Shown: one piece after another, positions 11,535 to 58,694 of the stretch | How the letters are laid out: each line of letters opens with the position of its first letter | Numbering within the stretch: the stretch's first letter is position 1 | Virus record (IMG/VR): IMGVR_UViG_3300043466_003828 | Coordinates: 1,036 to 65,035 of that record | Length of the DNA stretch: 64,000 nt | Source of the DNA: a virus | Lineage: Duplodnaviria; Caudoviricetes | Direction: 5' to 3' (one strand) | Position numbers and translations under genes: made by a program | The notes under the pieces: generated by a model | Databases searched by the model: none | Told to the model about the DNA's origin: nothing | What the model saw: only the letters and a program-made list of their open reading frames with translations

Positions 11535-11535
11535 T

Positions 11536-14862: not shown

Positions 14863-14864
14863 AT

Positions 14865-16037: not shown

Positions 16038-16049
16038 TATAGTAAACAC

Positions 16050-44491: not shown

Positions 44492-44494
44492 ATT

Positions 44495-44722: not shown

Positions 44723-44765
44723 TCCTCTTGCCTTATTATAAAATTTCTTATATACTTTATAGATT

Positions 44766-45431: not shown

Positions 45432-45462
45432 CATTATTACTAAAATATACTATTATTAAATA

Positions 45463-45837
45463 ATGAAATATCAAATTCGCAAAGCTGAACAATACACTGT
45501 ATGGCAAGCAACTGAAGTTGCAAATCTTGATCCAGAAGACTTTAAGAATCTTGAAGAAAATCCATACGCAGGGGATTCTGAAGAGGAGTTCCTAAAGTAT
45601 ATTGCTGAATTTATAAATACCTGCCGTTGGGATGGATTCCCTAGTGATCTTAATAGTGCCGCTACTAAAGAGCTTGATAAGATGGTAGAGAATGTTAACT
45701 GGACAGAGTATCATAACTCCTCATTTGATGGAGAGGAATCTTGGTACGAAATCGGAGAGGCAGACGAATCATATCGTAAGAGTGGAGGATTTAATTCCCG
45801 CTTTGATACCATTCAAAATACAAACACCGATTGGTAA
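45463..45837 (+). CDS. Hypothetical acidic protein
   Basis: 124 aa after TTGACA-17-TATTAT-6-ATG. Confidence 0.65.
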   Translation: MKYQIRKAEQYTVWQATEVANLDPEDFKNLEENPYAGDSEEEFLKYIAEFINTCRWDGFPSDLNSAATKELDKMVENVNWTEYHNSSFDGEESWYEIGEADESYRKSGGFNSRFDTIQNTNTDW

Positions 45838-46394
45838 TGCAAACAAAATGCTATCTTGATATGGATGGCGTTTTGGCCAACCTGTTTGATTTTATTTCTA
45901 TTAAAATTCTTGGCAAGGAATACAAAGCAATTGAAACGCCCGAAGAAAAGTTAAAACTAAAAAAAATTTGGACTGATAAAGACTTATTTATCGAAAAACT
46001 AGGAAAGCCAGCTGATTTATTCATAAATCTTAGTCCATATAGTACTAACGATGTGCTAATAAATAAAGTAATAGAAAAGTTTAATGGTTTTTATATTTGT
46101 TCGTCTCCAGCGAAAATGTTTCCAGATGAATGCATACTTGGAAAACTGCGATGGATAGGTCAACACATTATCCCTAAATATTCCACTTATTTTAAGGGAG
46201 CGGTTTTTCCAAGGCAAAAGTCAGAATATGCCATGAATGAAGATAGGTCTAAGAATATTTTGATAGACGACTATCAGCCTTACATAGATAGCTGGGAAGC
46301 TGCCGGGGGCATTCCAATTAAATTACAAAGCTCATTACACGATAGTCAAAGCATTTTAAAACTTCTTGAGGAAGAATTTAAAAATATTAATTGA
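45837..46394 (+). CDS. HAD-family 5'(3')-deoxyribonucleotidase-like protein
   Basis: YLDMDGVL, CSSP, GKLRW, ILIDD, WEAAGG. Confidence 0.8.
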   Translation: MQTKCYLDMDGVLANLFDFISIKILGKEYKAIETPEEKLKLKKIWTDKDLFIEKLGKPADLFINLSPYSTNDVLINKVIEKFNGFYICSSPAKMFPDECILGKLRWIGQHIIPKYSTYFKGAVFPRQKSEYAMNEDRSKNILIDDYQPYIDSWEAAGGIPIKLQSSLHDSQSILKLLEEEFKNIN

Positions 46395-46425
46395 CATTAA
46401 TGTAAATATTAATAATAATAAAATT

Positions 46426-47058
46426 ATGGGCATGTTTGATACTATACTAGCAAAAAGAAAACTTCCACTCACAAAGGAAATCAAGAAGGCTTTTCCTGAT
46501 ACCGATTGGGCTCAGGAAAGTTTTCAAACGAAGTCATTAGACAATACAATGACCACTTATACCATTAAAGGTACTGGTCTTTATTGGTCTAAGGTAGAAG
46601 GAGAGTATGTCAGGACAATGACAGAAGAGGAAGAGAAGAAGGCCAAAAAGAGTAGGAAGTGGGTATGGCCTTATGAATTTGTTGAATATAGTCGGAAGAC
46701 TGTAAACGTTCCATTTCATGGAACTATTAACTTTTATTCCTATAAGGAAGACAAGGATAATAATACTTGGGACATAGAGTTCGATGCACTTTTTAATACT
46801 GGTAAGCTTGTGAGCATTAAGCTCGTGAAGGGCGAGATCTCAACCACAGCGGAAGAAAACGCCGCTAGAGACAAGGAGTGGCGGGATAGACTAGATGCCC
46901 ATGAAAACCATCCTTGGACAAAGACTAAGAAGATTCTGAATAAGATTACTTTTGGCTATTGGACAAAGTTCTGGAGTAGCTATGTATCTAGAGGTCTTTA
47001 CTGGATTTCCCAAAAGACGCAAAAGCTTCAGCTTTGGGTTATTCGAACGCTCGCTTAA
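46426..47058 (+). CDS. Hypothetical phage protein (MGMFD family)
   Basis: MGMFDT..FQTKSL. Start reassigned to ATG 46426 from promoter spacing. Confidence 0.7.
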   Translation: MGMFDTILAKRKLPLTKEIKKAFPDTDWAQESFQTKSLDNTMTTYTIKGTGLYWSKVEGEYVRTMTEEEEKKAKKSRKWVWPYEFVEYSRKTVNVPFHGTINFYSYKEDKDNNTWDIEFDALFNTGKLVSIKLVKGEISTTAEENAARDKEWRDRLDAHENHPWTKTKKILNKITFGYWTKFWSSYVSRGLYWISQKTQKLQLWVIRTLA

Positions 47059-47059
47059 C

Positions 47060-47164
47060 ATGAGAGGGGACTATATTCCTTTATTGTCATGGCTTTCTGC
47101 TATGTTGATAGGCATGGTGATTTGGTTTTATTTAATTAAATTTATATGGCTCATTTTTGCTTAA
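47060..47164 (+). CDS. Small membrane peptide
   Basis: 34-aa hydrophobic ORF from ATG 47060. Confidence 0.45.
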   Translation: MRGDYIPLLSWLSAMLIGMVIWFYLIKFIWLIFA

Positions 47165-47763
47165 ACGCCCCTGTCTCTCAGCATATTTATGGCTATGTTG
47201 ATAAAGCGATACTTCATGGAAGCCTTACTCCACAGCACGAATACGAACCTTGCATTATATTTGGCATAACATCCATCCCATCACGGGCTTTACATTTTTC
47301 AATATTGTGCGAGTCAGGAGCGCAGTGGGCAAGAATACCAATTCATATGTTAAGGCATGAAAAGCCAACCTACTCCTTATCAAAAACACATGATCTGAGT
47401 AATTTGCAAATGTGGGATAATCATGGTTGGGATTTTAGCGTTGTTCACTATGACTTCTTGAGAGAAATGGGCTGTGAGTATATCAACAAAGATAATATTA
47501 AAATACCAGCACGTTATTGGTTTACTTTAGATCATACGGACAATGGTTATTCGCAATACCCATCACAACATAAATGTTATCATTTATTGTTACTGGAAGA
47601 TGGTAGCGGCCAAATAGCCGCACAACCAAATAATAGAATTTTATGGAAAGAACATTCGTTTGTCAAGAATGTGGATAAAATAACTTATAAAACAATGTCT
47701 CCAAAAACTTGGCATTGTGAGACGGGTAAAAACGCAGACGAAACATCGTTTACAAATAACTAA
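47146..47763 (+). CDS. Hypothetical phage protein
   Basis: 205 aa. GAQWARIPIH, YWFTLD, GQIAAQPNNRILW. Confidence 0.7.
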   Translation: MAHFCLNAPVSQHIYGYVDKAILHGSLTPQHEYEPCIIFGITSIPSRALHFSILCESGAQWARIPIHMLRHEKPTYSLSKTHDLSNLQMWDNHGWDFSVVHYDFLREMGCEYINKDNIKIPARYWFTLDHTDNGYSQYPSQHKCYHLLLLEDGSGQIAAQPNNRILWKEHSFVKNVDKITYKTMSPKTWHCETGKNADETSFTNN

Positions 47764-47770
47764 TTTATAT

Positions 47771-48055
47771 ATGAACAAAACTAGGGTAAACAATGAAGTG
47801 TATGTAGACATTTCTAAACCCCTGAGTAAAAAAACAAAAAAGCTCCTTAGAAACGCAAAACCCGCAAAAAAACATTTTTGTTATAATTTGTTTAATAAAA
47901 AGATCAGCATCGGGCTTTGGGAGATTCCAGATACAAAATATAAGAATTATCCAAAACTTAGCTTTGCAAACTTTAAATCATATGCAAAAATAGGAATTTC
48001 TTGGAAGAAGAACCTGTTTGAGATTGTTTGGAATAAGAAAACCCGTTCTTATTAA
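47771..48055 (+). CDS. Hypothetical basic protein
   Basis: ATG 47771 is the likely start. Confidence 0.5.
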   Translation: MNKTRVNNEVYVDISKPLSKKTKKLLRNAKPAKKHFCYNLFNKKISIGLWEIPDTKYKNYPKLSFANFKSYAKIGISWKKNLFEIVWNKKTRSY

Positions 48056-48107
48056 AGAACGGATTTATTTTCTTGACATGCACTACTAAAGTATGTAGAA
48101 TCATATA

Positions 48108-48734
48108 ATGAAAAATGTTTTCATCATTGCAGATCTTCACTTCGGAGACCCTGATATGTGCAACCTGTTAAAAGCAGATGGCCACCCTATGCGACCATTT
48201 AATAGCGTAGAGGAGCATGATGCTACACTGATTGAAAACTGGAACAAGGTTGTTACTGACCCAAGCGATAAGGTTTATGTTCTTGGTGACGTAGCACAGA
48301 AAAGGAAAGACATTGAAAACTTTGGCAAACTCAATGGGAAAAAGATCCTTATCAAGGGCAATCATGATATCTATGAGATGAAAGAGTATGCGAAGTATTT
48401 CAAAGATATTCGTGCAACTCATAGGTTGGAGAATGGTATTCTTATGAGTCATATTCCGGTTCATCCCGGCACTTTTGGCAAAGCACATAAGGTAAATGTA
48501 CATGGTCACATTCATGATAAGAGGATAATGATGCCAGCACCATTTTATCCAGACGGTATGTTAAAGGTTCCAGATCCCAAGTATTTCTGCGTATCTTGTG
48601 AACATATTAACTATACCCCTATGGAACTTGGTGCCATAGAGATAGAAGTCTTCGGATTTGAAAACCGTGCAAAGACCTTGGAGGAACTTGCGACACAGGC
48701 ACAGGAACTTAATATGGGATATGAATTAAAATGA
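48108..48734 (+). CDS. Calcineurin-like metallophosphoesterase
   Basis: ADLHFG, NWNKVV, LGDV, GNHD, SHIPVH, VHGHIH. Confidence 0.9.
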   Translation: MKNVFIIADLHFGDPDMCNLLKADGHPMRPFNSVEEHDATLIENWNKVVTDPSDKVYVLGDVAQKRKDIENFGKLNGKKILIKGNHDIYEMKEYAKYFKDIRATHRLENGILMSHIPVHPGTFGKAHKVNVHGHIHDKRIMMPAPFYPDGMLKVPDPKYFCVSCEHINYTPMELGAIEIEVFGFENRAKTLEELATQAQELNMGYELK

Positions 48735-49105
48735 ACAATCATCAAAAAATTGTAGAACTAAACAAGATTTGGTATGATCTTATAACTTGCGAGTACCATA
48801 AGGACAGGGATTGTCATTTCTATATCATAACTGATTACCAGTATGGTGAGAAGGTTGTTTATACTGTTCAACACGTTGGGTATATTAATCATCGTTATGA
48901 TGATACTGACTGGGAGACGATAGCAGAAGCTGAAATAGAACTTATTAAGGTTTTGTCTGAATGCATATTAAATGAAGTTGAATGGTACTTAGAACATTAC
49001 GGAGACCCAAATTGGGATCAGCATGCAAGATATAATAATAAAGAGCTTGAAAGTATAAAGCAAGCTGTACTTGATATAAAATCTAATGTAAAAGCAGAAA
49101 GGTAA
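48731..49105 (+). CDS. Hypothetical protein
   Basis: 124 aa, HKDRDCHFYI. Confidence 0.65.
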   Translation: MNNHQKIVELNKIWYDLITCEYHKDRDCHFYIITDYQYGEKVVYTVQHVGYINHRYDDTDWETIAEAEIELIKVLSECILNEVEWYLEHYGDPNWDQHARYNNKELESIKQAVLDIKSNVKAER

Positions 49106-49112
49106 ATAGTAT

Positions 49113-49382
49113 ATGGTCTTAAAAGATATTGTAAGGGAAGTCTCAGGGTCTATCATGTCCCTATGCTGCTTAATAGGTTCAATGCCTCAGATTTATAAAA
49201 TCCTTAAGACAAAGCATTCAGCTGACCTTGCGCCAGCTTCTATTCTTATTTCTTTTACTTGTGCTGTGTCAGGTATGGTCTATATATTGACTGGCACATA
49301 CTCTTTTTGGTTGTTTTTAAATTGTATAAATGGTGTAATATTATCAACAATCTTATTTTTCTGTTGGTACAAATACAAATAA
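49113..49382 (+). CDS. SemiSWEET/PQ-loop family small transporter
   Basis: 89 aa with three hydrophobic helices. MPQIYKILKTKHSADL PQ-loop signature and Asn in TM3. Confidence 0.75.
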   Translation: MVLKDIVREVSGSIMSLCCLIGSMPQIYKILKTKHSADLAPASILISFTCAVSGMVYILTGTYSFWLFLNCINGVILSTILFFCWYKYK

Positions 49383-49390
49383 ATAATAGT

Positions 49391-49594
49391 ATGCAACATA
49401 ATGATATCCATGTTATTGGCCATGCTGCTATAGGCCTATTAGCATTTGGAATGCTTATGTTCTTCTGGATGATCTTGAAAGGAGTTAAGAAGGTAAAGAA
49501 GAAAGGTAGAAAAGCAGTGAAAAGAACTACTAGATTCGATTTATATCTGGAGGAACTAGAAAATTTTAAGAAAAACTGGTTTTATGATATTTAA
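49391..49594 (+). CDS. Small membrane protein with basic tail
   Basis: ATG 49391, one transmembrane segment, then a K-rich segment. Confidence 0.55.
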   Translation: MQHNDIHVIGHAAIGLLAFGMLMFFWMILKGVKKVKKKGRKAVKRTTRFDLYLEELENFKKNWFYDI

Positions 49595-49874
49595 AAATAA
49601 ATTTATATACAAACTTATAATAATACTGTCTTTAGTGACACTTGGAACTTTAAGTGGCTATGAAAAGCCAGAATTTAAACTGATTGATTATCTTGATTCT
49701 TTCCATAATAGTGGAGATGTTATAGAGGACATGAATAGGTTGCAATCCAAGTATCATCTCAGGGTATCCAAGAAGAGAGATTGGCAATTAGGTGGAATTA
49801 TTATTAGAGACTTTAAGTTTCATGGGGGCAATCAACCTATTGTTACTCAGACTGGATTAATGTTTGCATTTTAA
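49584..49874 (+). CDS. Hypothetical protein with N-terminal hydrophobic segment
   Basis: 96 aa. Confidence 0.5.
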   Translation: MIFKNKFIYKLIIILSLVTLGTLSGYEKPEFKLIDYLDSFHNSGDVIEDMNRLQSKYHLRVSKKRDWQLGGIIIRDFKFHGGNQPIVTQTGLMFAF

Positions 49875-49911
49875 TCTTGACAGGTTTACCATATATTTAT
49901 ACCATATTGGT

Positions 49912-50307
49912 ATGTACAATTGGTTTAACTATTCTAGAGTGAAGAAGCAACTTGAGAGTCAACTGGCTGAAAATGCGGCTCTTAGAGAAGAAAATAAAAA
50001 TCTAGAAGATATCCTCAAGTCTATTGAGCAGGATGGAACAGAAGAGCATAATAATGCAATAAAGCTTAGGCAGGAGAATGCAAAGCTTAAGGATGAGATT
50101 GCTAAGTGGGAAAAGTCTTGGGAAGAAGCAGCATCTGATTTAGCTTTGAGAGTAATAAAGCTCGAAAAACAAATAGAAGAGCTTAAAATTGTAAATATAA
50201 CTAATCCATATAGTGCTATGAAACCTGATGGTACACTTAAAGCTATTAATTGTGTAGGACATATACCTACAAATGGGTATGTGCCATCAAATCAAGATGC
50301 ATTTTAA
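49912..50307 (+). CDS. Coiled-coil hypothetical protein
   Basis: Start reassigned to ATG 49912 after TTGACA-17-TACCAT-6. Heptad repeats. Confidence 0.65.
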   Translation: MYNWFNYSRVKKQLESQLAENAALREENKNLEDILKSIEQDGTEEHNNAIKLRQENAKLKDEIAKWEKSWEEAASDLALRVIKLEKQIEELKIVNITNPYSAMKPDGTLKAINCVGHIPTNGYVPSNQDAF

Positions 50308-50313
50308 AATATT

Positions 50314-50544
50314 ATGCCTAAAGCCACAATACAATATAATCTCCCAGAGGAGCAAAGTGAATTTGATCTAGCAAATAATGCTTCGAAGTATTATTCTGTT
50401 CTATGGGACTTGGATCAATATCTTAGAAACTTTGTCAAGTATCCATCTGATAGAGAAGATCCAATTCTTACTGATACTATGGCTAAGGTAAGAGGTGAGC
50501 TTTGGAGACTCATGAATGAACACAACCTAAATTTAGACCAATGA
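50314..50544 (+). CDS. Hypothetical phage protein
   Basis: MPKATIQYNLPEEQSEF..LWDLDQYLR, a common phage pattern. Confidence 0.7.
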   Translation: MPKATIQYNLPEEQSEFDLANNASKYYSVLWDLDQYLRNFVKYPSDREDPILTDTMAKVRGELWRLMNEHNLNLDQ

Positions 50545-50750
50545 AACCAGAATGGGAATTTAGAAATGATAGTGAAGGTAATCTTGACGAGATTGTTGCA
50601 GAAGATGTCCAGTTCTTCCATCTAGAAAGAATGGATAATGGCCATTGGTGGCTTGGCGTAACTCTTCAAGATGGTTCTAGGATTTCGGCCAATCTTATTT
50701 CAGATCTTAATAAAAGAATTAATTGTGTAGCACATAAAGAAGAACCTTAA
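50541..50750 (+). CDS. Hypothetical protein
   Basis: 69 aa. LDEIVA..HLERMD..WWLG. Confidence 0.6.
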   Translation: MKPEWEFRNDSEGNLDEIVAEDVQFFHLERMDNGHWWLGVTLQDGSRISANLISDLNKRINCVAHKEEP

Positions 50751-50760
50751 AATGTTTGAA

Positions 50761-50803
50761 AATTGACACCTCCTCCTAAAAGATATAGAATAAGATTATG
50801 AAT
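50761..50803 (+). promoter_or_regulatory. Leaderless promoter repeat, copy 2
   Basis: 41 of 43 bp identical to 44164-44206. Confidence 0.8.
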
Positions 50804-51148
50804 AAAGAACTTTTTGAAGAAATTATCCTAAAGCTTCAGCTAATGCATGAAAAGGGTCGAAAGCTCTATGAACTTGGAATTGATCTGCTGGAATATACAG
50901 AATCATATGAAAGGATTATTGATGTCCTTTTGAAAGCTCATTTCAATGATGATCAGATTGGATGGATTGATTGGTATCTTTATGAAAGACCATCTTTGAC
51001 AGAGAGAGGAAAGTCAAACAAAGCTTATAAGACAGTTGGGAAGAAGAAAGTAGAAATCTGTCACACTATTGATTCTTTGTGGGAGACTATTCAGGAATAT
51101 ACCCCTCAAGCAGAATGGGATAAAAGGTGGCCGGGTAGAAACAAATGA
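50798..51148 (+). CDS. Hypothetical protein
   Basis: 116 aa, WIDWYLYE. Confidence 0.65.
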   Translation: MNKELFEEIILKLQLMHEKGRKLYELGIDLLEYTESYERIIDVLLKAHFNDDQIGWIDWYLYERPSLTERGKSNKAYKTVGKKKVEICHTIDSLWETIQEYTPQAEWDKRWPGRNK

Positions 51149-51264
51149 TTAAAGCTTTAACAACTTGTATAATCCTAGTATGCTTTTGTATACTTGAAGG
51201 TTGGTTTACATCTAATCTTATAAAGGTTCTTGCTTATAACGAAGTTATTCTAAATGACAATTAA
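51145..51264 (+). CDS. Small hydrophobic peptide (39 aa, not in ORF track)
   Basis: ATGA-coupled and fills the gap. Confidence 0.4.
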   Translation: MIKALTTCIILVCFCILEGWFTSNLIKVLAYNEVILNDN

Positions 51265-51808
51265 ACCTACAGTAATTTGGTTAACAGGCCTATCTGGTTC
51301 TGGAAAGACTTCCATTGCCGAGGCCCTTAACAATAAGCTTAAAGCGAATGGAATTAGATCAGGAGTAGCAGATAGTGATACTCTAAGACTTGATACTAAA
51401 ACACTTGTTGGGTTTGATATAGAAGGCAGATGGGTAGCTGTTAATAGAATGATCTATGCTGTTAAGAATATGATTGAATTCCAAAAGGCAGAAGTTGTTA
51501 TTGTTGCTAGTATTTCTCCTCTTATAGAGATGAGAAAACAAGCTAGGCATATTCTTACAAATTATTCAAACGCTAATTTTATTGAAGTATTCGTTGATAC
51601 GTCTATTGAGATTTGTGAACAAAGAGATGTTAAAGGTCTCTATAAAAAATTTCGAGATGGTCTGATTAAAAATATGTCTGGAATTGATTCTCCATATGAA
51701 GCAGATGCAAATGTAGAAGTTTGGCTTCCATATAAAAATCCATATACTGGAGAATTGACAGTTGACAACGCCGTAAAGATTATTTACAATGCTATTTATC
51801 AATTATGA
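51254..51808 (+). CDS. cysC: Adenylyl-sulfate (APS) kinase
   Basis: IWLTGLSGSGKTSIA, ASISP, EVFVDT..ICEQRDVKGLY, GIDSPYE. Confidence 0.9.
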   Translation: MTIKPTVIWLTGLSGSGKTSIAEALNNKLKANGIRSGVADSDTLRLDTKTLVGFDIEGRWVAVNRMIYAVKNMIEFQKAEVVIVASISPLIEMRKQARHILTNYSNANFIEVFVDTSIEICEQRDVKGLYKKFRDGLIKNMSGIDSPYEADANVEVWLPYKNPYTGELTVDNAVKIIYNAIYQL

Positions 51809-52179
51809 TAAAGAAAGTATTACAACCAACTAACGACGCTTTCGTTCAGTTTACCGAAGAAGAACTTGAGTCTATTGGCGCAGGACCGGGCACAAAGTTT
51901 AGTGTTAAACTTCATGATGATGGGTCTGTTGAGCTTCGACCTTATGTAAAAATGGAAGTTGACATTGAGAACTGGTCTAGAGAAGTCCTTGAACTAATAA
52001 TTAAAGAATCATGCGAACGAGATGTTTCAGTGAATGATGTTATTATTGATTTTATAAAAGAATCAATTAATAAAGAAGATATTAGTGCAGAAAACAAGGA
52101 AATTTTTGAGGGCAATTTACAGGCCGCATCGTTGGATCCAAATTTCACAAATCAAGACACCAGCGTTGTTAAATATTAA
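51805..52179 (+). CDS. AbrB/MazE-like DNA-binding domain protein
   Basis: FVQFTEEELESIGAGPGTKF...DGSVELRP. Confidence 0.6.
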   Translation: MIKKVLQPTNDAFVQFTEEELESIGAGPGTKFSVKLHDDGSVELRPYVKMEVDIENWSREVLELIIKESCERDVSVNDVIIDFIKESINKEDISAENKEIFEGNLQAASLDPNFTNQDTSVVKY

Positions 52180-52194
52180 TTATTAAATAATTTT

Positions 52195-52785
52195 GTGAAC
52201 GACAAGCTAAGGAAAGAAACGGTTTTAGTATTGAACCGCAATTGGCAAGCTATTCATGTTAAAAGCCCTACCGAGGCGATTACAATGATGTACGCTGAAA
52301 ACGCCACTGGTCTTGACATAAGAGGAGAAGACAATATGGTTCCATTAAAATGGGCGGATTGGATTCAATTACCCATTGAAAACGAAACGGACGACTATAT
52401 TCAAAGTATTCGTGGCAATATTAAAATACCAAAGGTAATTGTTCTTTGTCATTATAATTTAGTTCCTAGAAAGCGGCCAAAATTTTCCGCTAAAGCCATA
52501 TGGGAAAGAGACATGGGAACTTGCCAGTATACTGGGCAAAAGTTAATCCCAAATGATGCAAATATTGACCATGTAATTCCAAAATCTCGTGGCGGAAAAA
52601 CCGATTGGTCTAACTGTGTACTCACGCATAAAGATATTAATGCAAAAAAAGCAGACAGGACGCCAGAAGAAGCTGGGCTACGCTTGATCAAGCGGCCACA
52701 AGATCCTAAAGAATTACCCTCTACTTTTTATATTAAAAATAAACACAAGGTTAAAGAATGGGAACTATTCTTAAATTGGAATTGA
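52195..52785 (+). CDS. HNH endonuclease
   Basis: VLVLN, IWERD..CQYTG, IDHVIPKSRGG..WSNCV...NAKKADRTPEEAG. Confidence 0.9.
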   Translation: MNDKLRKETVLVLNRNWQAIHVKSPTEAITMMYAENATGLDIRGEDNMVPLKWADWIQLPIENETDDYIQSIRGNIKIPKVIVLCHYNLVPRKRPKFSAKAIWERDMGTCQYTGQKLIPNDANIDHVIPKSRGGKTDWSNCVLTHKDINAKKADRTPEEAGLRLIKRPQDPKELPSTFYIKNKHKVKEWELFLNWN

Positions 52786-52816
52786 CATACAATACATATA
52801 CTGTTATCATATATTT

Positions 52817-53566
52817 ATGAATGCGAAAATTATTAAAACCCTAACTAAAAGATTAGAGGGCTCAAAAATCTTACCCTATATAAAGGTTAATAGTGTGGAT
52901 GATTATTTTAATTTGCCAAGTTCAGAACGCGAAAGGTGGGGTCTTTATAGACGGCCATTTGCATTGCCATGTGAATGGCTAGAAACTCGAATGGGCAAAA
53001 AGAGCGGCGACCTAAAGCCAGAGAAGAGGGGCTGGGCTTCTTGGCGTGAACAAATTAAGCGCGAATATCCTGTTCAGTGGTTCCTACGTGAATGGTGTTT
53101 TAGTTACGAAAATCCAATCTATGCCTTTATTAAAGGCGTATACTTTGATTATACGGAAAAGAAATATGCAATAAAGCGTTTTATTAAACCTTTTTATCCA
53201 CGCTTTCGCAAGTCAATGCCACGGCATAAATATATTGATGTATGCGAAGCTCTGAAGAGAGTCAATTTTGCACTTATTTTAGATTTTTGGCACGATGAAA
53301 TGAGTAGTGGAACTGTTGACTGGGAAGATAACGCCCAGCATAAAAATTTCTATAAGCGGGTAGAGGCACTAGTTAAATATATTGAAGTTGAACGTCCTGC
53401 ACTAGAAAAGAAGGCCGACGACGCGCTCACGTTAGCGACCAATAAAAAGACTGGAACATATGAACAACGTTATTCAAAATACAATGCAATAGAAGCAAAG
53501 ATTGCACAAAAAGATACGGATCTTTTAGTATGGGCTATGCAAAATCGTGAGATGTTTTGGACGTAA
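52817..53566 (+). CDS. Hypothetical protein
   Basis: 249 aa after TTGACA-17-TATCAT-6-ATG. Confidence 0.7.
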   Translation: MNAKIIKTLTKRLEGSKILPYIKVNSVDDYFNLPSSERERWGLYRRPFALPCEWLETRMGKKSGDLKPEKRGWASWREQIKREYPVQWFLREWCFSYENPIYAFIKGVYFDYTEKKYAIKRFIKPFYPRFRKSMPRHKYIDVCEALKRVNFALILDFWHDEMSSGTVDWEDNAQHKNFYKRVEALVKYIEVERPALEKKADDALTLATNKKTGTYEQRYSKYNAIEAKIAQKDTDLLVWAMQNREMFWT

Positions 53567-53570
53567 TACC

Positions 53571-54584
53571 ATGAGTAATGTTCTATTAATAGAAAGTTGC
53601 GAAAAAAAGACTATAGAAGAAAACTTTTCTAATACTTCCATAGTACATGTAAGAAATTCGCTAATCTTGAAGAAAGAACTTGGCTATGAGCTAGTTACAC
53701 ATATGTCACAAATTCCCAATGCCCTAGAGAAACAATGGGATCATATCGTTTGTTGCTATGCCTCCCCTTATATGAAATATAAAGCATACATGGATATTAT
53801 TGATAATAATCCTAATGCAAAACTGTGGTTTCTAGTAAATGATTACGATTTAGAGGATAATGTATTATTGCGAAATGTGGTAAAGAAATACCATAAAAAG
53901 TATAATGTTATTTGTAATACCGAAAGATCTGGATACCGCCATTGGATTTTGGGCAAGAAGCTTGAAGAAAAAAAGTTGAATGATTGGATTGATGAGTGGC
54001 ACGTTGCAAATTTAAATTGTTTAATTTTTAATTATAAAAACAATATCGAACAGCCTTTAGCAAATAAAAGTAATTGTATATATTTTGGAACGCCTAGAAA
54101 GCATAGGTATAAGGACATGGTGGCCTTTAATGGCATCGAAGATTACTACATATCCTCTTCGGCAAAAAACCAGCTAAAATACACAAACGCCGGGATTGAG
54201 GCTCAGTATATAGATAAACTCGACTGGACTACTGGCAATGAAACCTTGAATGAATATAAATACTCAATATATTTTGAAGACGTTCATACGCATAATGTAT
54301 ATTCCGGATTAGCGAATAGGTTCTACGAATGCCTAATGTGTGATGTGGTTTTGTTTTTTGACGCTAAATGCGAAAAAACAGTTCAGAAAGCAAGAGATCA
54401 CGGCTATAAAATTAGCGATTTTCTACTAGTCAAAGATGCCAAAGATTTAAATTCTAAAATGCAATTAATGAATAAAAATCACGAGATGTATTTAGAAGTA
54501 CTCGGCGCGCAAAGAGAGAATATAGACGTTGCCCTAGTAGATAGGAACATCTGTTTGGATAAAATTAATACTATTCTTTCCTAA
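53571..54584 (+). CDS. T4 beta-glucosyltransferase-like GT-B enzyme (putative DNA glycosyltransferase)
   Basis: KLWFLVND, CIYFGTPR..HR, IYFED, ANRFYECLMCDVVLFFD and LLVKDAKDL parallel recalled T4 BGT motifs in order. ATG 53571. Confidence 0.6.
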   Translation: MSNVLLIESCEKKTIEENFSNTSIVHVRNSLILKKELGYELVTHMSQIPNALEKQWDHIVCCYASPYMKYKAYMDIIDNNPNAKLWFLVNDYDLEDNVLLRNVVKKYHKKYNVICNTERSGYRHWILGKKLEEKKLNDWIDEWHVANLNCLIFNYKNNIEQPLANKSNCIYFGTPRKHRYKDMVAFNGIEDYYISSSAKNQLKYTNAGIEAQYIDKLDWTTGNETLNEYKYSIYFEDVHTHNVYSGLANRFYECLMCDVVLFFDAKCEKTVQKARDHGYKISDFLLVKDAKDLNSKMQLMNKNHEMYLEVLGAQRENIDVALVDRNICLDKINTILS

Positions 54585-54591
54585 AGCGTGT

Positions 54592-54831
54592 TTAGTATAA
54601 CTTGTTTTTAATAAAATTTACTGCTTCAATAAAATTAATAATTTTAGAATCGGAAATGCGATTTTCATTAATCTTATTTACTAAAGTAATATCACCTAGT
54701 GGATCTAAATAAAAACTTAAATGAAATGCATTTTCTGAAAAGTTAATTGTAATTTCTTGTTTTTTAAATAAATTTGTACCAATTTCCTCGAACCCTAGTG
54801 ATATTATATAATTATAAATAATTTCGTTCAT
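54592..54831 (-). CDS. Hypothetical protein
   Basis: 79 aa at the end of the minus-strand operon. Confidence 0.45.
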   Translation of the reverse strand: MNEIIYNYIISLGFEEIGTNLFKKQEITINFSENAFHLSFYLDPLGDITLVNKINENRISDSKIINFIEAVNFIKNKLY

Positions 54832-54839
54832 AAACTTGA

Positions 54840-57800
54840 TTACACTCCAAATCCTTTAAAATTCTTATCTAAATTTCCGCTATAATCCATTGCGGCAGTT
54901 GAGCATCTAAAATCTGGATGACGAAGATTTGAAAATAGTCCATGAAAATAAATTCGGTCGTTATTAAACGAGGCGTCGTAAACAAACATATTTGCAGAAC
55001 TTGATGATGTACCAAGCTCTTGATTATTCTGGAATGCAAATGTTTGGTTATCTATCACAAAATCATAATTAGTAAGATTATTTCCAGTTATTTTATCTTT
55101 TAAAGTAATAAAAGAATTTTGTGGAGAGGGCGAATTCATATGCCTATATTCCAACATGTCACCAAACTCCCCCACAGTTATTAACTCATCTCCATATGTC
55201 TTTATGTCCCATATTTGACCGGGGAACTGGTCTCCAAAACCAAATGGTGGACGTTCTCTAAATACGCTATTTGGGCCAGCCCCCCCATAATTTCTAATTA
55301 TATTACCACTTGTTAAACCTACTAAAAATACGCCTCTAGGACTATTACTATCTCCAGAACCTCCTACTGATACAAGGTCTCCTCCTACAAATAAACCACT
55401 TGGATGAAGATGTAAAGCTGTAATTCCGTCAGTACCAAGAACATTTCTAGTATTATACCAATAAGAAGTATTTACAGTATATCCAGAGAAAGGTCTGAAT
55501 GTTGTTAAGTGTGCAGCTGTATTTGTATCAAATGCAGCTACTCCTACATATGCACTAACTGGCGCCGCTCCAAATTGTGATGTTGTTCCAGCTGTGTATA
55601 TAGTATTTCCAGTAATAGCCATTTTTCTTAACACTCCATTAAGAATGCTTGGATTATATGACTCTAAAGCACCGCCAGAAGCCGCCGAAACGTCAAATCT
55701 GCAAATTCTGTTTCTACTCAAACCACTTACCGTAGTGAAGTCACCACAAGCAAACATCTTATTACCACTAAACTGTAAATCCCAAACATCAGCATTCATA
55801 TTTGGGTTCCAGCTATCTAACGTATTATCATTAAGATTAATTCTAGCAATTCTATTCCTTGCTGTTCCAAGTACAGATGTAAATGTTCCGCCAATATAAA
55901 GAAAATTATCTCTTCTTTTTATTGCAAAAACACTATTATTAACATTATAATCAATCCCTGAAATTCTCTGGTTATTTAAATCAAACCATGCCACTCTATT
56001 TCTTGTAACTGTTGACTCATTACTTGTTGTCGGAGACATATTTTGAACAAGTGTAAATTGTCCACCGATATACATAAATCCAGATTCCAAGAAACTAGAC
56101 AATATACCGCCATTCCGAGTACAACGTGGCGCTCCATTATTAATATTACCAGTAATAAGATTTCCAGAATCTAAGTTATAAGCAAGTTGATTTGCATAAG
56201 GCCTAAAATTTTCATTTCCAACTGATATACCCAAACTATTAAATGTTCCGTTGATATATGCATTATTATTATATATTTCTATAGTTCTACCAGCGCCTAC
56301 CTGATTAAGCATTAAACTCAAAACAGGGGTATCTAAAAGAGTGCCACTTTGAATACTGAACATCGCCATGCCGCCCCTTCTTTCTCCAGCATGCGCAAAA
56401 CTTCCACAAACTAAAACTCCAGATGGGGTTACCCTGATATTTGTAGGTTCTCTAGGTAATTTTGGATCCCATGCTAATAATCCAGTGTTATTTAAATTAA
56501 TTGCCGCGCCGAAGTTTCTTTCTTGACCCAAGACTCTTCTAAATGCCCCACCTATATACAATGTATTAGTACTTGTATCAATATCCATTGCCTTAACTTC
56601 ACGATCAAGGTTTAAATTAAAATTTGTAATTGCATTATTTTGCAAGTCTAAACAGAATAATCCATTTCTAATCAAACCGCTTACTGTACCAAAAGTGCCA
56701 CCAACATAGAGTCTGTCATTCTGTCTGCGCATGCACGAAATAACGGAATTAGAACTTGGCCCGGTTTTATTAGAATTAAAGCCAAAATTTTGAACTATTT
56801 CAAAATTTGTTCCATATCTCACTTGATTAGTATTTATATCAATACCAGCAAAAGACCTAATTCTATTTGGAACCGAACCAGAAACAAAATTTCCACCCAT
56901 AAATAGAACATTACCGCTTTTTTCTAAACATAAAATGTCGGTGTTAACGCCAAGATCAACATTGAAATTTGTAGTTAACCCACCAGTTCTCAAGTCTACA
57001 ATCGCCACAGAATTTCTAATACCCGTAGTAAGTGTTGGCGAGTTTAGGCTATTGAATCTACCACCAATTGCCAAAGTATTATCTCCAGTATCTAAGTGCA
57101 TAGACCAAATCCCCTGCGCAAGATTATTTGACGAATAATTACTTGTTGGCGCGCTAACCATTTGAATATTTGGATTCCAGTCTAGAATTCTATTTGTATT
57201 CAGATCTACAGCAAAAGCATTATTTCTTTTTATTTTTTCAATAAATCCACCATGACTTCTTCCAAAAATTAGCATGTTATTACCACGTTTTTGATAAGAA
57301 TCAAATAAAAATCCATTACTTCCATGATAGTAACTATTACCACCACAACCTTGACTTAATCCAGTGTGTATTGTCAGACCACTCACATTGTCTATAATGT
57401 AAGGTGGATTTACAGGATTATGATCATTTGCTATTAATGTTGGATTTGATGTTGAGTTATTAACTCTATATGTCCAAAGTCTGGACTGGTCAACCCTCAA
57501 ATCCACAATAACCTTATTTCCAAACTCATTTACATATCCGCACAACACCTGAGGTAAAATGGAATTTGGCCTGAATCCAGTCATTATTATTCCATTTTCA
57601 TAACCAACTCTACATAAAAATTGGTAATTGCCACCAGTTCCGCCTACGTTTGTAAAATCTCCACCAATGTAAAGGCCGCTTACACCGGTATTCATTGATC
57701 TAACAATTCCATTTAAGTTAGGATTAAATGGTAATAAAGTCATATCCGGAAATGTAACTGCGGCAATTCTATTCCTAGTAACCCCACCAACTGTGGTAAA

Positions 57801-58694
57801 AGTTCCATTAAAGTAAATTTTATTACCAGAACGTATCATGCTATAAATTTCACCATTTGGGCCAGCCGCAGAAGTAAATCCAGTAATTGCTGTACCGCTA
57901 ACATAATCTAAACAAACTATGCGGTTCCAACTCCCACCCGCCGCTGTTGTGAAATTTCCACAAACCCAAACGCCAGTTCTATTAGGATAAAAATTTCCAG
58001 TATCTACAAAATAATCGTTAGAATTTGAATTAGTGCTCGTGCTATTTGAAAAATTTTGAAACCAAGTTCTATCTGGAATTAAAGACCATCTATAATTATT
58101 TGCTGGATTTACTTCTAAGTTCATTTTAACTATAGATTGAGGATACAAACCAAATCCATAGTTACCACCATTAATGACACTATTGCCATTAAATACTTGA
58201 ATATTATTTCCATTGTGTTGGAAAAGAATTCCAGAACCAACCCATTTTAGTAGTCTAGTTGCGTTACCGCCTCCCAAACTCATCCCCAGTCCCGTATTAA
58301 CACCAGAAGGGGTAATTTGTATAAAACCCTCTCTACCACCAAGCATATTTGCTGGGGAAGTAGATATGGATCCATCTGGACGACAAACTTGCGAAATATT
58401 ATTAAAATTTCTAAAATTGCCACAAAAATACTTATTTCCATATGGATCCACTTCATAACCTACCTTGGTATAACCAATGCTATCTCCATAAATTTTAGCA
58501 TCTACATTTGCAGGATATATATTTAAATTTGGATCTATCTCAGCGAAAGGAGAGTAAACTTGGCAAAGCGAGTTAAAATTGCCTCCAAAATATAAAACAT
58601 TACCACTAATAGCTGATGCCAAAACTGGCCCATTTGGATATAAAAAGTTTTTTTCGTTAGTATCCTTATCTAAATTTGAAAACGGGAAAAACAT
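54840..58694 (-). CDS. Large multi-beta-propeller virion surface/receptor-binding protein
   Basis: Many (L/M)Y(I/V)GG.F blades with RN.IA and W(N/D)P motifs. SG/TG-rich. Confidence 0.75.
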   Translation of the reverse strand: MFFPFSNLDKDTNEKNFLYPNGPVLASAISGNVLYFGGNFNSLCQVYSPFAEIDPNLNIYPANVDAKIYGDSIGYTKVGYEVDPYGNKYFCGNFRNFNNISQVCRPDGSISTSPANMLGGREGFIQITPSGVNTGLGMSLGGGNATRLLKWVGSGILFQHNGNNIQVFNGNSVINGGNYGFGLYPQSIVKMNLEVNPANNYRWSLIPDRTWFQNFSNSTSTNSNSNDYFVDTGNFYPNRTGVWVCGNFTTAAGGSWNRIVCLDYVSGTAITGFTSAAGPNGEIYSMIRSGNKIYFNGTFTTVGGVTRNRIAAVTFPDMTLLPFNPNLNGIVRSMNTGVSGLYIGGDFTNVGGTGGNYQFLCRVGYENGIIMTGFRPNSILPQVLCGYVNEFGNKVIVDLRVDQSRLWTYRVNNSTSNPTLIANDHNPVNPPYIIDNVSGLTIHTGLSQGCGGNSYYHGSNGFLFDSYQKRGNNMLIFGRSHGGFIEKIKRNNAFAVDLNTNRILDWNPNIQMVSAPTSNYSSNNLAQGIWSMHLDTGDNTLAIGGRFNSLNSPTLTTGIRNSVAIVDLRTGGLTTNFNVDLGVNTDILCLEKSGNVLFMGGNFVSGSVPNRIRSFAGIDINTNQVRYGTNFEIVQNFGFNSNKTGPSSNSVISCMRRQNDRLYVGGTFGTVSGLIRNGLFCLDLQNNAITNFNLNLDREVKAMDIDTSTNTLYIGGAFRRVLGQERNFGAAINLNNTGLLAWDPKLPREPTNIRVTPSGVLVCGSFAHAGERRGGMAMFSIQSGTLLDTPVLSLMLNQVGAGRTIEIYNNNAYINGTFNSLGISVGNENFRPYANQLAYNLDSGNLITGNINNGAPRCTRNGGILSSFLESGFMYIGGQFTLVQNMSPTTSNESTVTRNRVAWFDLNNQRISGIDYNVNNSVFAIKRRDNFLYIGGTFTSVLGTARNRIARINLNDNTLDSWNPNMNADVWDLQFSGNKMFACGDFTTVSGLSRNRICRFDVSAASGGALESYNPSILNGVLRKMAITGNTIYTAGTTSQFGAAPVSAYVGVAAFDTNTAAHLTTFRPFSGYTVNTSYWYNTRNVLGTDGITALHLHPSGLFVGGDLVSVGGSGDSNSPRGVFLVGLTSGNIIRNYGGAGPNSVFRERPPFGFGDQFPGQIWDIKTYGDELITVGEFGDMLEYRHMNSPSPQNSFITLKDKITGNNLTNYDFVIDNQTFAFQNNQELGTSSSSANMFVYDASFNNDRIYFHGLFSNLRHPDFRCSTAAMDYSGNLDKNFKGFGV

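What the first reader, a model, noticed from the sequence alone, without database searches (positions are those of the whole stretch)
53571..54584. Distant T4 beta-glucosyltransferase-like enzyme suggesting glycosylated DNA outside T-even phages
Seen, compared with the T4 BGT sequence as recalled: KLWFLVND vs KIYYLFTD (catalytic-base Asp position), CIYFGTPRKHR vs VIYGGSFRSGQR, ANRFYECLMCDVVLFFD vs TLRVWETMASDAVMLID, and LLVKDAKDL vs FYVNNRAEL. Order and length are similar. The gene sits among early/middle genes, away from the glycan cluster. Established: BGT glucosylates 5-hydroxymethylcytosine. No hydroxymethylase or TET/JBP gene is visible in this window. Inference: the phage hypermodifies its DNA, possibly on a different base or with a different sugar.
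Basis: partly seen in the sequence, partly recalled or inferred. Interest (0 to 1): 0.7.

Follow-up and report, generated by a model that had tools for sequence, protein, structure and literature searches.

The report
Stand-alone T4 BGT-like phage glycosyltransferase
An uncultured lake-water phage carries a true but very distant relative of the T4 enzyme that puts glucose on phage DNA, yet this phage and its complete relatives have no known way to make the modified base that enzyme needs, so what it sugar-coats is open.

Summary
ORF 53571-54584 (+, 337 aa) is a real, conserved gene. Its AlphaFold model (pLDDT 93.6) matches T4 beta-glucosyltransferase (BGT) best of 48,161 solved chains (Z 21.9), then T4 alpha-glucosyltransferase (Z 20.1), then generic GT-B enzymes (Z 17.6 or less). 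Profile-profile comparison with a BGT family alignment gives E 8.8e-16 over the full length. The BGT nucleotide-binding Arg/Asp/Arg-Glu residues are invariant, and the residue aligned with catalytic Asp100 is Asp or Glu in 146 of 146 relatives.

None of 10 complete phage genomes carrying this enzyme encodes a ThyA-family hydroxymethylase, a TET/JBP dioxygenase or a C5-methyltransferase. In a clustering of nine of them, no other protein is shared by more than six. Apart from the catalytic acid, the BGT acceptor-domain signature residues I mapped are replaced.

The gene is phage-restricted and driven by a sigma-70-like early promoter. It usually sits in replication/recombination modules. It also occurs in cultured Cronobacter phage S13, which lacks gp42.

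Best reading: a stand-alone, UDP-sugar-dependent inverting glycosyltransferase acting on an acceptor already present in the infected cell. DNA is the leading single candidate (about 40%) but is unproven.

The parts
52782..52810 (+). sigma-70-like promoter (TTGACA-17-TATCAT, TG-extended) directly upstream of the two-gene unit
   Evidence: The pattern TTGACA-N17-TAnnAT occurs 8 times in the window against 0.34 expected. Seven are on the + strand within 44-53 kb, and six of those seven (all but 49877) end 5-7 bases before an ORF start.
52817..53566 (+). 249-aa ORF of unknown function, 4 bases upstream of the glycosyltransferase gene
   Evidence: It lies directly upstream of the enzyme gene in 4 other loci (L002, L003, L055, L071). 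No Pfam, PHROG or NCBIfam hit. Unrelated to the O-like initiator that sits upstream in small phages. Atlas neighbours are unnamed viral clusters.
53571..54584 (+). BGT-like glycosyltransferase gene (337 aa plus stop)
53571..54065 (+). N-terminal (acceptor) Rossmann-like domain, residues 1-165
   Evidence: Model secondary structure. hhalign of the N-domain alone with the broad alignment: E 1.7e-5. With the narrow alignment: E 0.38.
53841..53843 (+). codon of Asp91, the proposed catalytic base (aligned with BGT Asp100)
   Evidence: Asp or Glu in 146 of 146 relatives. Aligned to D100. Codon checked.
54066..54581 (+). C-terminal (nucleotide-sugar) domain, residues 166-337
   Evidence: hhalign E 1e-11 against the BGT family. 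HMMER alignment to 1nzd.
54096..54107 (+). Arg176...Arg179 (GTPRKHR), aligned with BGT Arg191/Arg195
   Evidence: Invariant in 146 of 146. Aligned.
54276..54281 (+). Glu236-Asp237 (FED); Asp237 is aligned with BGT Asp258
   Evidence: Invariant in 146 of 146. Aligned.
54318..54329 (+). Arg250...Glu253 (NRFYE), aligned with BGT Arg269/Glu272
   Evidence: Invariant in 146 of 146. Aligned.

Best explanation
The gene encodes an early-expressed, soluble, two-domain GT-B glycosyltransferase. It is a distant full-length homologue of T4 DNA beta-glucosyltransferase.

Shown: the fold; profile-level homology over both domains; strict conservation of the residues aligned with BGT R191, R195, D258, R269 and E272; an always-acidic residue (Asp91 here) aligned with BGT Asp100.

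Inferred: it binds a host UDP-hexose in the C-domain. Asp91 acts as general base for a direct-displacement (inverting) transfer to a nucleophile held by the N-domain.

It works alone. No hydroxymethylase, dioxygenase, methyltransferase or any other partner protein travels with it, so its acceptor must already exist in the infected cell. That acceptor is not phage-made 5hmC or 5hmU. The acceptor domain is strongly conserved across unrelated phage types, which points to a universal acceptor rather than a host-specific glycan.

My leading single candidate is DNA, the phage's own replicating DNA, at a group other than a hydroxymethyl. I put that at roughly 40%. It rests on kinship and on the gene's place in replication/recombination modules. 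The enzyme identity itself I hold at about 85%.
For: Fold and homology:
- AF2 model pLDDT 93.6, pTM 0.91.
- BGT entries take ranks 1-4 in Foldseek.
- VIA-align: BGT Z 21.9, AGT Z 20.1, next chain 17.6, of 48,161 chains.
- hhalign: E 1e-11; E 8.8e-16 over 311 columns; N-domain alone E 1.7e-5.
- Controls: E 0.36 against the window's own GT4, E 0.038 against T4 AGT, E 1.9e-6 against the single T4 BGT sequence.
- Atlas: the nearest named clusters are PF09198 families.

Residues: R176, R179, E236, D237, R250 and E253 are invariant, and position 91 is D or E, in 146 of 146 sequences.

Stand-alone:
- ThyA family in 1 of 78 GT-bearing viral records and 0 of 10 complete ones.
- Tet_JBP and C5-methyltransferase in 0 of 10 complete ones.
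- TGT and 2OG-FeII_Oxy_3 in 0 of 5.
- Complete P22-like G015: 14 Pfam families in 55 ORFs, none base-modifying. The same holds for G029 plus part of G013.
- The enzyme is the only cluster in 9 of 9 complete genomes; the next best is in 6 of 9.

DNA-side context:
- An O-like replication initiator lies directly upstream in 33 of 79 loci.
- A dCMP-deaminase-like gene abuts the enzyme gene in 18 loci.
- Clusters near the enzyme gene include YqaJ exonuclease, an ERF-like protein (named from my reading of its sequence, no search) and a Ref-type nuclease. Pfam scans of complete genomes also list ERF, Sak and RusA.
- A sigma-70-like early promoter lies at 52782-52810.

Distribution: 253 and 357 relatives in viral contigs, but only 3 loci, all in freshwater MAGs, in one genome each of 185,579 species.
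Against: - No known DNA glycosyltransferase acts on a canonical base, and no route to a hydroxylated base is encoded.
- The BGT-family N-domain invariants I mapped (N70, G73, G74) are replaced; Q137 was not mapped. In the C-domain G257, Y261 and T267 are replaced too.
- PF09198 is not matched at E<=10.
- The 146-sequence profile finds nothing in PDB by hmmsearch.
- With the narrow alignment the N-domain shows no signal.
- The high rank of BGT and AGT may partly reflect their compact size. I could not get residue-level superpositions or electrostatics from the model.
- Absence of Tet_JBP and DruA rests on searches whose control genomes gave no match over the cut-off.
- Partner detection used BLASTP only, and non-homologous lineage-specific partners remain possible. 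Examples: a GNAT-like gene two ORFs downstream in G013; phrog_3704 in 13 of 30 records.
- The authors of bioRxiv 10.1101/2023.12.21.572611 regard GT hits without a neighbouring modification enzyme as less likely to act on DNA (section 9 read).
Confidence: 0.45

Rival explanations
1. The acceptor is not nucleic acid. The enzyme glycosylates a widely conserved host or phage protein, a metabolite or signalling nucleotide, or an envelope precursor, as a host-takeover or counter-defence moron.
For: It stands alone in 9 of 9 complete genomes and has moved between unrelated phage types: P22-like podoviruses, 140-154 kb DnaE-encoding phages and a T4-like phage. The acceptor-domain signature differs from BGT. 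About 65% of phage GT contigs mined in bioRxiv 10.1101/2023.12.21.572611 have no modification neighbour (section 9 read).
Against: There is no positive evidence for any particular acceptor. The only characterised homologue acts on DNA. The gene sits in replication/recombination modules, not lysis, structural or lysogenic-conversion modules. No informative domain fusions were found.
Confidence: 0.38
2. It follows the classical T4-type logic. The phage does make 5hmC, 5hmU or 5hoC through an enzyme that my searches missed: a novel hydroxylase or hydroxymethylase, a ThyX variant, or a host enzyme. This protein then glycosylates that base.
For: There is full-length BGT homology with the catalytic acid kept. 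A ThyX is present in the window, in G001 and in G004. Many ORFs in these genomes have no family; for example only 14 Pfam families were found across 55 ORFs in G015. Earlier notes of this scan describe other BGT-like genes that do sit beside hydroxymethylases (leads only).
Against: ThyX is absent from the complete relative G002, and it is not among the Pfam families found in the small complete genomes scanned (G015, G029, part of G013). No protein other than the GT is common to more than 6 of 9 complete genomes. ThyA family is in 0 of 10 complete genomes. BGT's acceptor-side invariants are not conserved.
Confidence: 0.1
3. It is one step of a lineage-specific two-enzyme DNA modification. A GNAT/Mom-like or other acyl-transferring enzyme first installs a hydroxyl-bearing group, which the GT then glycosylates.
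For: A GNAT-like ORF (phrog_1249, E 4e-6) lies two ORFs downstream of the GT in complete genome G013. In 18 loci a conserved 160-aa ORF of unknown family and a Zn-deaminase precede the GT. Earlier scan notes report BGT-like genes travelling with Mom-like enzymes in marine phages (lead only).
Against: Acetyltransf_1 was found in only 2 of 16 records, and DruA in 0 of 16 with a silent control. Neither was found in this window, G001 or G002. The 160-aa ORF has no Pfam or PHROG hit.
Confidence: 0.05
4. It is a degenerate or non-catalytic relic, or mainly a UDP-sugar hydrolase.
For: None directly. GT-B enzymes can hydrolyse their donor without an acceptor (general knowledge).
Against: Nine residues are invariant over 146 sequences, plus an always-acidic position 91. 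The N-domain motifs are strongly conserved. 335 representative clusters match at E<=0.001.
Confidence: 0.02

Closest known systems
Phage T4 DNA beta-glucosyltransferase (b-gt; Pfam PF09198; CAZy GT63 as I recall it; PDB 1bgt, 1c3j, 1j39, 1nzd, 1qkj)
   Same: Similar size (337 vs 351 aa) and the same two-domain GT-B fold (Z 21.9, rmsd 3.1 A over 299 residues). Profile homology runs over the full length (E 8.8e-16). The acidic residue after strand 4 is aligned with D100. R191, R195, D258, R269 and E272 are matched by invariant residues. The C-terminal helical tail, including a conserved Gln, is shared. Both are early genes of lytic phages (T4 timing is from my knowledge).
   Different: Only 12-15% identity. 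PF09198 is not matched. BGT invariants N70, G73, G74, G257, Y261 and T267 are replaced, and the family has its own N-domain motifs (VHVRNS, YASPYMKY, ICNN, NLN). There is no gene 42-type hydroxymethylase or any partner. The acceptor is unknown.
GT-B DNA glycosyltransferases of metagenomic phages linked to C5-methyltransferase and 5mYOX/TET (GT53, GT66, GT94; bioRxiv 10.1101/2023.12.21.572611, passages and section 9 read)
   Same: Uncultured-phage enzymes whose models match T4 BGT at Foldseek E 1e-5 to 1e-7 (here 7.5e-8), with a proposed catalytic Asp overlapping D100.
   Different: Those enzymes sit in clusters with a methyltransferase, a dioxygenase and sugar-activating enzymes, and were shown to act on 5hmC. 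Here none of these is present in 10 complete genomes. I could not compare sequences directly, because none are in the text and supplements are closed.
Phage T4 DNA alpha-glucosyltransferase (a-gt; PDB 1y6f, 1xv5)
   Same: Second-best structural match (Z 20.1, rmsd 3.9 A over 313 residues).
   Different: No sequence-profile similarity (E 0.23 and 0.038). It is a retaining enzyme (from my knowledge).
Hypothetical protein gp057 of T4-like Cronobacter phage S13 (also LPCS28 and Citrobacter phage Ci1)
   Same: A true family member: 28% identity over 225 residues, E 3e-20, with Glu at the position of Asp91. S13 also lacks a gp42-type enzyme: its single ThyA-family gene lies in the frd-td-nrdA arrangement.
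   Different: Shorter N-terminus (283 aa). It sits between uvsY and uvsW in a 182-kb Straboviridae genome. Uncharacterised.
CgeB/YkvP-like Glyco_trans_1_2 (PF13524) and generic GT4 enzymes
   Same: GT-B fold. There is a weak PF13524 hit on the C-domain (E 0.15), a domain that some BGT relatives also carry.
   Different: The hit is below Pfam's cut-off (12.5 vs 25 bits). Generic GT-B structures score Z 17.6 or less. There is no profile similarity to the window's own GT4 (E 0.36).

Membership tests
T4 beta-glucosyltransferase family (Pfam PF09198 / CAZy GT63) | Match to Pfam PF09198 (T4-Gluco-transf) at the gathering score | tested here: not met
   No PF09198 hit at E<=10 for P0001, whereas 42 of 42 BGT relatives carry it.
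T4 beta-glucosyltransferase family (Pfam PF09198 / CAZy GT63) | GT-B two-Rossmann fold closest to BGT among solved structures | tested here: met
   Foldseek ranks 1-4 are BGT entries. VIA-align rank 1 of 48,161 chains, Z 21.9.
T4 beta-glucosyltransferase family (Pfam PF09198 / CAZy GT63) | Sequence homology detectable over both domains | tested here: met
   hhalign E 8.8e-16 over 311 columns. N-domain alone E 1.7e-5 with the 146-sequence alignment, but E 0.38 with the 38-sequence alignment. hmmsearch of A6 against PDB finds nothing.
T4 beta-glucosyltransferase family (Pfam PF09198 / CAZy GT63) | Catalytic base Asp100 | tested here: met
   Asp91 is aligned to D100. Position 91 is D in 68 and E in 78 of 146 sequences. 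This is by alignment only: no superposition and no assay.
T4 beta-glucosyltransferase family (Pfam PF09198 / CAZy GT63) | UDP-binding residues R191, R195, R269, E272 (roles recalled from the BGT structure papers) | tested here: met
   Aligned with R176, R179, R250 and E253, all invariant in 146 of 146.
T4 beta-glucosyltransferase family (Pfam PF09198 / CAZy GT63) | Other family-invariant residues (N70, G73, G74, Q137, G257, Y261, T267) | tested here: not met
   In the alignments they face Y67, K69, Y70, E236, T240 and A248. Q137 was not mapped.
T4 beta-glucosyltransferase family (Pfam PF09198 / CAZy GT63) | Works on 5hmC supplied by a phage dCMP hydroxymethylase (gene 42 type) | tested here: not met
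   PF00303 is present in 1 of 78 GT-bearing records and 0 of 10 complete ones.
T4 beta-glucosyltransferase family (Pfam PF09198 / CAZy GT63) | Transfers glucose from UDP-glucose to DNA | not testable with these tools
   Needs an enzyme assay or nucleoside LC-MS.
MT/5mYOX-associated phage GT-B DNA glycosyltransferases (bioRxiv 10.1101/2023.12.21.572611) | Encoded beside a C5-cytosine methyltransferase and a TET/JBP-type dioxygenase | tested here: not met
   PF00145 and PF12851 are in 0 of 10 complete genomes. The PF12851 controls gave no match over the cut-off, so sensitivity is unproven.
MT/5mYOX-associated phage GT-B DNA glycosyltransferases (bioRxiv 10.1101/2023.12.21.572611) | Sequence kinship with GT53, GT66 or GT94 | not tested
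Supplements are closed.
CgeB-like Glyco_trans_1_2 (PF13524) / generic GT4 | Match to PF13524 or PF00534 at the gathering score | tested here: not met
   PF13524 scores E 0.15, 12.5 bits against a cut-off of 25. hhalign against the window's GT4 gives E 0.36.
T4 alpha-glucosyltransferase (GT72 as I recall) | Sequence homology to AGT | tested here: not met
   hhalign E 0.23 and 0.038. Only the fold is similar (Z 20.1).

The most novel reading that the evidence does not exclude
A single-enzyme DNA glycosylation system. A BGT-derived transferase would put a sugar directly on a canonical nucleobase (for example an exocyclic amine) or another native DNA group, with no hydroxymethyl precursor. It would play the role orphan DNA methyltransferases play in other phages, and it would be widespread in freshwater phages and present in a cultured T4-like Cronobacter phage.
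Probability: 0.25. Interest if true: 0.85.

Novelty: new variant of a known kind. Interest (0 to 1): 0.55.

Why it matters
Every phage DNA glycosylation described in the papers I read starts from a hydroxyl installed by a thymidylate-synthase homologue or a TET-type dioxygenase (PMC13326640 abstract; bioRxiv 10.1101/2023.12.21.572611).

Here a clear BGT relative keeps its catalytic machinery but has shed every such partner. It has rebuilt its acceptor domain and spread as a lone gene through unrelated phages of lake bacteria.

If it acts on DNA, it would define a precursor-free sugar modification. That would bear on restriction and CRISPR evasion, on sequencing bias in viromes, and on enzymatic DNA-labelling tools. 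If it does not act on DNA, it shows that the BGT scaffold has been turned to another universal target in infected cells.

Either answer is reachable experimentally, because a family member exists in culturable phage S13.

Tried and rejected
- Single-sequence searches (Pfam, PHROGs, NCBIfam, PDB phmmer) gave nothing usable.
- hmmsearch of the 146-sequence profile against PDB gave no hit.
- A search for longer, fused forms found none. Extended family members carry no Pfam domain.
- Overall pI does not separate this family from the BGT family: medians 6.99 vs 6.4, both ranges wide.
- phrog_3704 protein (window 47146-47763), a frequent neighbour:
  - It lies near the GT in 23 of 79 loci, and in 13 of 30 records but only 4 of 9 complete genomes.
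  - The model is weak (pLDDT 63.3) and has no Foldseek match at E<=0.001.
  - I dropped it as an obligatory partner.
- The 249-aa upstream ORF is not a divergent O-like initiator and has only unnamed viral neighbours in the Atlas.
- The APS kinase three genes upstream is unique to this phage; it was a cluster of one among 81 sources and had no BLASTN match in G001. I rejected it as a partner.
- Mom/DruA-like lead from earlier notes: DruA in 0 of 16 records with a silent control, GNAT in 2 of 16.
- Sequencing runs holding the stretch are kept only as contigs, with no raw or nanopore reads. No read-level signal of modification could be sought, and read laying was not used.
- Literature searches for GT63, phage-encoded glycosyltransferase plus defence, and the S13-group phages found no study of this family. 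The roughly 25,000 GT contigs mined in bioRxiv 10.1101/2023.12.21.572611 may include it; their lists are in supplements I could not open.
- A BapA/Brig3 preprint (10.64898/2026.02.25.707755; abstract and passages read) proved irrelevant.
Full report
**The gene.**
- The window is bases 1036-65035 of a 65,035-base IMG/VR viral record estimated 38% complete.
- An ORF runs from a GTG at 53547, or an ATG at 53571, to a stop at 54584 on the + strand.
- The ATG form (337 aa, P0001) starts where homologues start. It follows the stop of the preceding 249-aa ORF by four bases.
- The single sequence has no significant hit in Pfam, PHROGs, NCBIfam or PDB. Pfam gives only PF13524 at E 0.15 and an unrelated PF16775 at E 0.022.
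- It is nevertheless a well-populated family:
  - 133 clusters at E<=0.001 in the word-indexed search, none with a Pfam domain and all 'hypothetical' where named.
  - 335 representatives in the exhaustive search, 190 of them below 1e-10.
  - 253 and 357 confirmed relatives in two scans of viral contigs.
- In one genome each of 185,579 prokaryote species, a pattern-limited scan found only three loci, all in freshwater MAGs.
- Among 50,697 phage records it occurs only in Cronobacter phages S13 and LPCS28 and Citrobacter phage Ci1.
- Twenty public runs under 18 study codes hold at least half of the sampled words of window 47000-56900. They are mostly lake-water metagenomes, and eight may be the source.

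**Is it like T4 BGT?**
- I fetched the real T4 b-gt and a-gt genes.
- Sequence evidence:
  - A 38-sequence family profile (A1) against all PDB sequences returns four sequences at E<=10. BGT entries score 0.007 and 0.022, and two unrelated acetyltransferases score 0.014-0.015. Taken alone this is marginal.
  - hhalign of A1 against the single BGT sequence gives E 5.8e-4.
  - Against a 24-sequence BGT-family alignment (A2) it gives probability 97.4% and E 1e-11, but only over the C-terminal domain. The N-domains alone give E 0.38.
  - Adding 108 more distant full-length relatives (146 sequences, Neff 5.7) changes this. Full-length alignment reaches 98.6%, E 8.8e-16 over 311 columns. The N-domain alone reaches 78.6%, E 1.7e-5 over 98 columns.
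- Controls with the same broad profile: the window's own GT4 gives E 0.36, T4 AGT E 0.038, and the single BGT sequence E 1.9e-6.
- One negative result: hmmsearch of that profile against PDB finds nothing at E<=10.
- Structure:
  - The AlphaFold model built on A1 is confident (pLDDT 93.6, pTM 0.91).
  - Foldseek ranks four BGT entries first (E 7.5e-8 to 5e-7, TM 0.64-0.69).
  - An exhaustive structural alignment against 48,161 chains ranks BGT first (Z 21.9, rmsd 3.1 A, 299 residues), T4 AGT second (Z 20.1) and generic GT-B enzymes from Z 17.6 down.
  - The language-model atlas puts PF09198 clusters next after the family's own unnamed viral clusters.

**Active site.**
- In the alignments, the residue pairs are (family residue to BGT residue): Y171 to Y186, G173 to G188, R176 to R191, R179 to R195, D237 to D258, R250 to R269, E253 to E272, and D264 to D283.
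- Across 146 sequences N149, Y171, R176, R179, S195, E236, D237, R250 and E253 never vary.
- Asp91 follows strand 4 of the model. It is aligned with the BGT catalytic base D100. This position is Asp in 68 and Glu in 78 of 146 sequences, never anything else. The catalytic role of D100 is cited in bioRxiv 10.1101/2023.12.21.572611 and recalled by me.
- The S13 homologue has Glu there.
- I therefore infer a UDP-sugar donor and an inverting, carboxylate-assisted transfer.
- The BGT-family N-domain invariants I mapped (N70, G73, G74) and the C-domain invariants G257, Y261 and T267 are not kept. Q137 was not mapped.
- The family has its own strongly conserved acceptor-side motifs: VHVRNS, YASPYMKY, ND/EY, ICNN and NLN.
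- So the donor half is BGT-like and the acceptor pocket is rebuilt.

**Is there a modified base to glycosylate?**
- Two complete relatives with terminal repeats, G001 (154,360 bases) and G002 (140,531 bases), carry 84-85% identical enzymes. G001 is syntenic with the window at about 70-92% nucleotide identity.
- ThyA-family genes (PF00303) cover dCMP and dUMP hydroxymethylases and 5-hydroxy-dCMP synthases (PMC13326640, abstract and section 25 read).
  - They were found in 0 of 1, 0 of 5, 1 of 48 and 0 of 27 GT-bearing records. That is 1 of 78 distinct records, and 0 of 10 that are at least 90% complete.
  - Five loci were not held and not searched.
  - The single positive scores E 7.6e-94, which looks to me like an ordinary thymidylate synthase.
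- Tet_JBP and C5-methyltransferase are in 0 of 10 complete genomes. The Tet_JBP controls gave no match over the cut-off, so its sensitivity is unproven.
- TGT and 2OG-FeII_Oxy_3 are in 0 of 5.
- A ThyX (TIGR02170, 132.6 bits against a cut-off of 87.9) is at 32220-32864 and also in G001 and G004, but not in complete G002.
- A complete 33.7-kb P22-like genome (G015) yields 14 Pfam families from 55 ORFs: portal, coat, terminase, YqaJ, ERF, DUF1376, endolysin and the like. None is a base-modifying enzyme.
- G029 and part of G013 yield 24 families from 71 ORFs. These include only a generic SAM methyltransferase and Lar.
- Clustering all ORFs of nine complete genomes by BLASTP shows the enzyme as the only cluster present in all nine. 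The next best clusters are in six (the last 531 bases of G002 were not included).
- Cultured phage S13 has a single ThyA-family gene, annotated thymidylate synthase, between frd and nrdA, and no gp42.
- The T4-type two-step pathway is therefore not encoded.

**Context.** Counts are over 79 sources in which the enzyme ORF was found, of 81 examined.
- The commonest neighbour is an O-like replication initiator (DUF1376; phrog_678 and phrog_6451). It lies directly upstream on the same strand in 33 loci.
- A dCMP-deaminase-like gene abuts the enzyme gene in 18 loci.
- Other clusters near the enzyme gene:
  - YqaJ exonuclease.
  - An ERF-like protein, named from my reading of its sequence, with no search behind it.
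  - A Ref-type nuclease.
  - phrog_3704, a protein of unknown function whose PHROG label is 'ferredoxin'. It is in 23 loci, in 13 of 30 records, and in 4 of 9 complete genomes.
- Pfam scans of complete genomes also list ERF, Sak and RusA.
- In the window's lineage the conserved upstream genes are an HNH endonuclease and a 249-aa protein of unknown function.
- The pattern TTGACA-N17-TAnnAT occurs 8 times in the window against 0.34 expected. Seven copies are on the + strand between 44 and 53 kb, and six of those seven end 5-7 bases before an ORF start. One, at 52782-52810, precedes the 249-aa ORF and the enzyme gene.
- The gene is therefore probably transcribed early by host polymerase. It ends the rightward block, facing leftward virion genes.

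**What it most likely does.**
- Shown: a conserved, phage-restricted, stand-alone BGT homologue with an intact donor site and catalytic acid.
- Inferred: a UDP-hexose donor, inverting chemistry, and an acceptor already present in the infected cell.
- The acceptor domain is conserved between phages of 35-49% G+C and very different architectures. That argues for a universal acceptor rather than a host-specific glycan.
- DNA is the best single candidate, at about 40%. It rests on kinship and on the gene's place in replication/recombination modules.
- Against DNA: no known DNA glycosyltransferase uses a canonical base, and the BGT acceptor signature is gone.
- Rivals:
  - A non-nucleic-acid acceptor, about 38% collectively.
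  - A missed hydroxymethylase, about 10%.
  - A lineage-specific GNAT-first pathway, about 5%. This was prompted by earlier scan notes and by a GNAT-like gene two ORFs downstream in G013, but GNAT was found in only 2 of 16 records.
  - A relic or mere hydrolase, about 2%.

**Relation to what is known.**
- BGT-like GT-B enzymes that glycosylate 5hmC in uncultured phages are already described. About 65% of some 25,000 mined phage GT contigs lacked a neighbouring modification enzyme (bioRxiv 10.1101/2023.12.21.572611; passages and section 9 read). So 'glycosylated DNA outside T-even phages' is not new.
- Specific to this work: this family is a true BGT homologue, and complete genomes show it has no partner at all.
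- I found no paper on the family. It may be in that preprint's supplementary lists, which I could not open.
- Earlier notes of this scan on another genome (e1-5873950) reached the same kind of conclusion independently. A later check there found that part of it fell, but I do not know which part.

**Verdict.** This is a new variant of a known kind, of moderate interest. It has a concrete experimental handle in phage S13.

Noticed in passing
window 51254-51808 (+): A phage-encoded adenylyl-sulfate (APS) kinase: Pfam PF01583 at E 2e-43, and TIGR00455 at 153.3 bits against a cut-off of 138.7. It is absent from the syntenic region of the complete relative G001, so it looks like a recent insertion. 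That hints at PAPS supply for a sulfation step.
   Followed up: partly
window 7661-16787 (+): A sugar-tailoring cluster: GT17-like transferase, GFO/IDH/MocA oxidoreductase, hexapeptide acyltransferase, two DegT-type aminotransferases and a GT4. By the logic of known pathways (recalled) it would make an acetamido sugar. The block has no nucleotide match in G001, so it is a variable cassette.
   Followed up: partly
window 38365-39576 (+): A 403-aa protein with a strong match to Pfam PF11397 'Glycosyltransferase (GlcNAc)' (E 6e-71). This is another soluble glycosyltransferase in the early region, and its acceptor is unknown.
   Followed up: no
window 32220-32864 (+): A flavin-dependent thymidylate synthase, ThyX (TIGR02170, E 1.4e-38). 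It is present in G001 and G004 but absent from the complete relative G002.
   Followed up: partly
window 44166-52810, + strand: Seven exact TTGACA-N17-TAnnAT sites. Six of them (all but the one at 49877) end 5-7 bases before an ORF start. With one more site on the - strand there are 8 in the window against 0.34 expected. This looks like a block of host-type early promoters.
   Followed up: partly
window 47146-47763 (+); also L040:1119-1751 and L076:13071-13721: A roughly 210-aa protein (phrog_3704, labelled 'ferredoxin', with no Pfam hit) that lies near the BGT-like gene in several different phage backgrounds (23 of 79 loci). The model is all-beta and only moderately confident (pLDDT 63.3), with no structural match at E<=0.001.
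   Followed up: yes
window 54840-58694 (-): A 1284-aa protein with DUF5122 beta-propeller repeats and a phrog_5490 match. It is followed by a BppL_N-containing protein and a virion structural protein, so it is probably a receptor-binding fibre. The region has no nucleotide match in G001.
   Followed up: no
L001:4644-5495 (Cronobacter phage S13 gp057): A cultured T4-like phage carries a member of this family between uvsY and uvsW. Its only ThyA-family gene is the td-like one, so it has no gp42. This makes it a tractable system for the open question.
   Followed up: partly
L064, L076 and related loci (e.g. L066:2182-2607): In 18 loci a Zn-dependent dCMP/cytidine deaminase-like gene overlaps or abuts the start of the BGT-like gene. 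It is preceded by a conserved 160-aa ORF with no family match. This could be a lineage-specific three-gene cassette.
   Followed up: partly
window 23648-26185 (+): The phage replicates with a DnaE-type DNA polymerase III alpha subunit (PF07733, PF17657, PF14579). It also carries a DnaB-like helicase, a PD-(D/E)XK nuclease and a ribonucleotide reductase.
   Followed up: no
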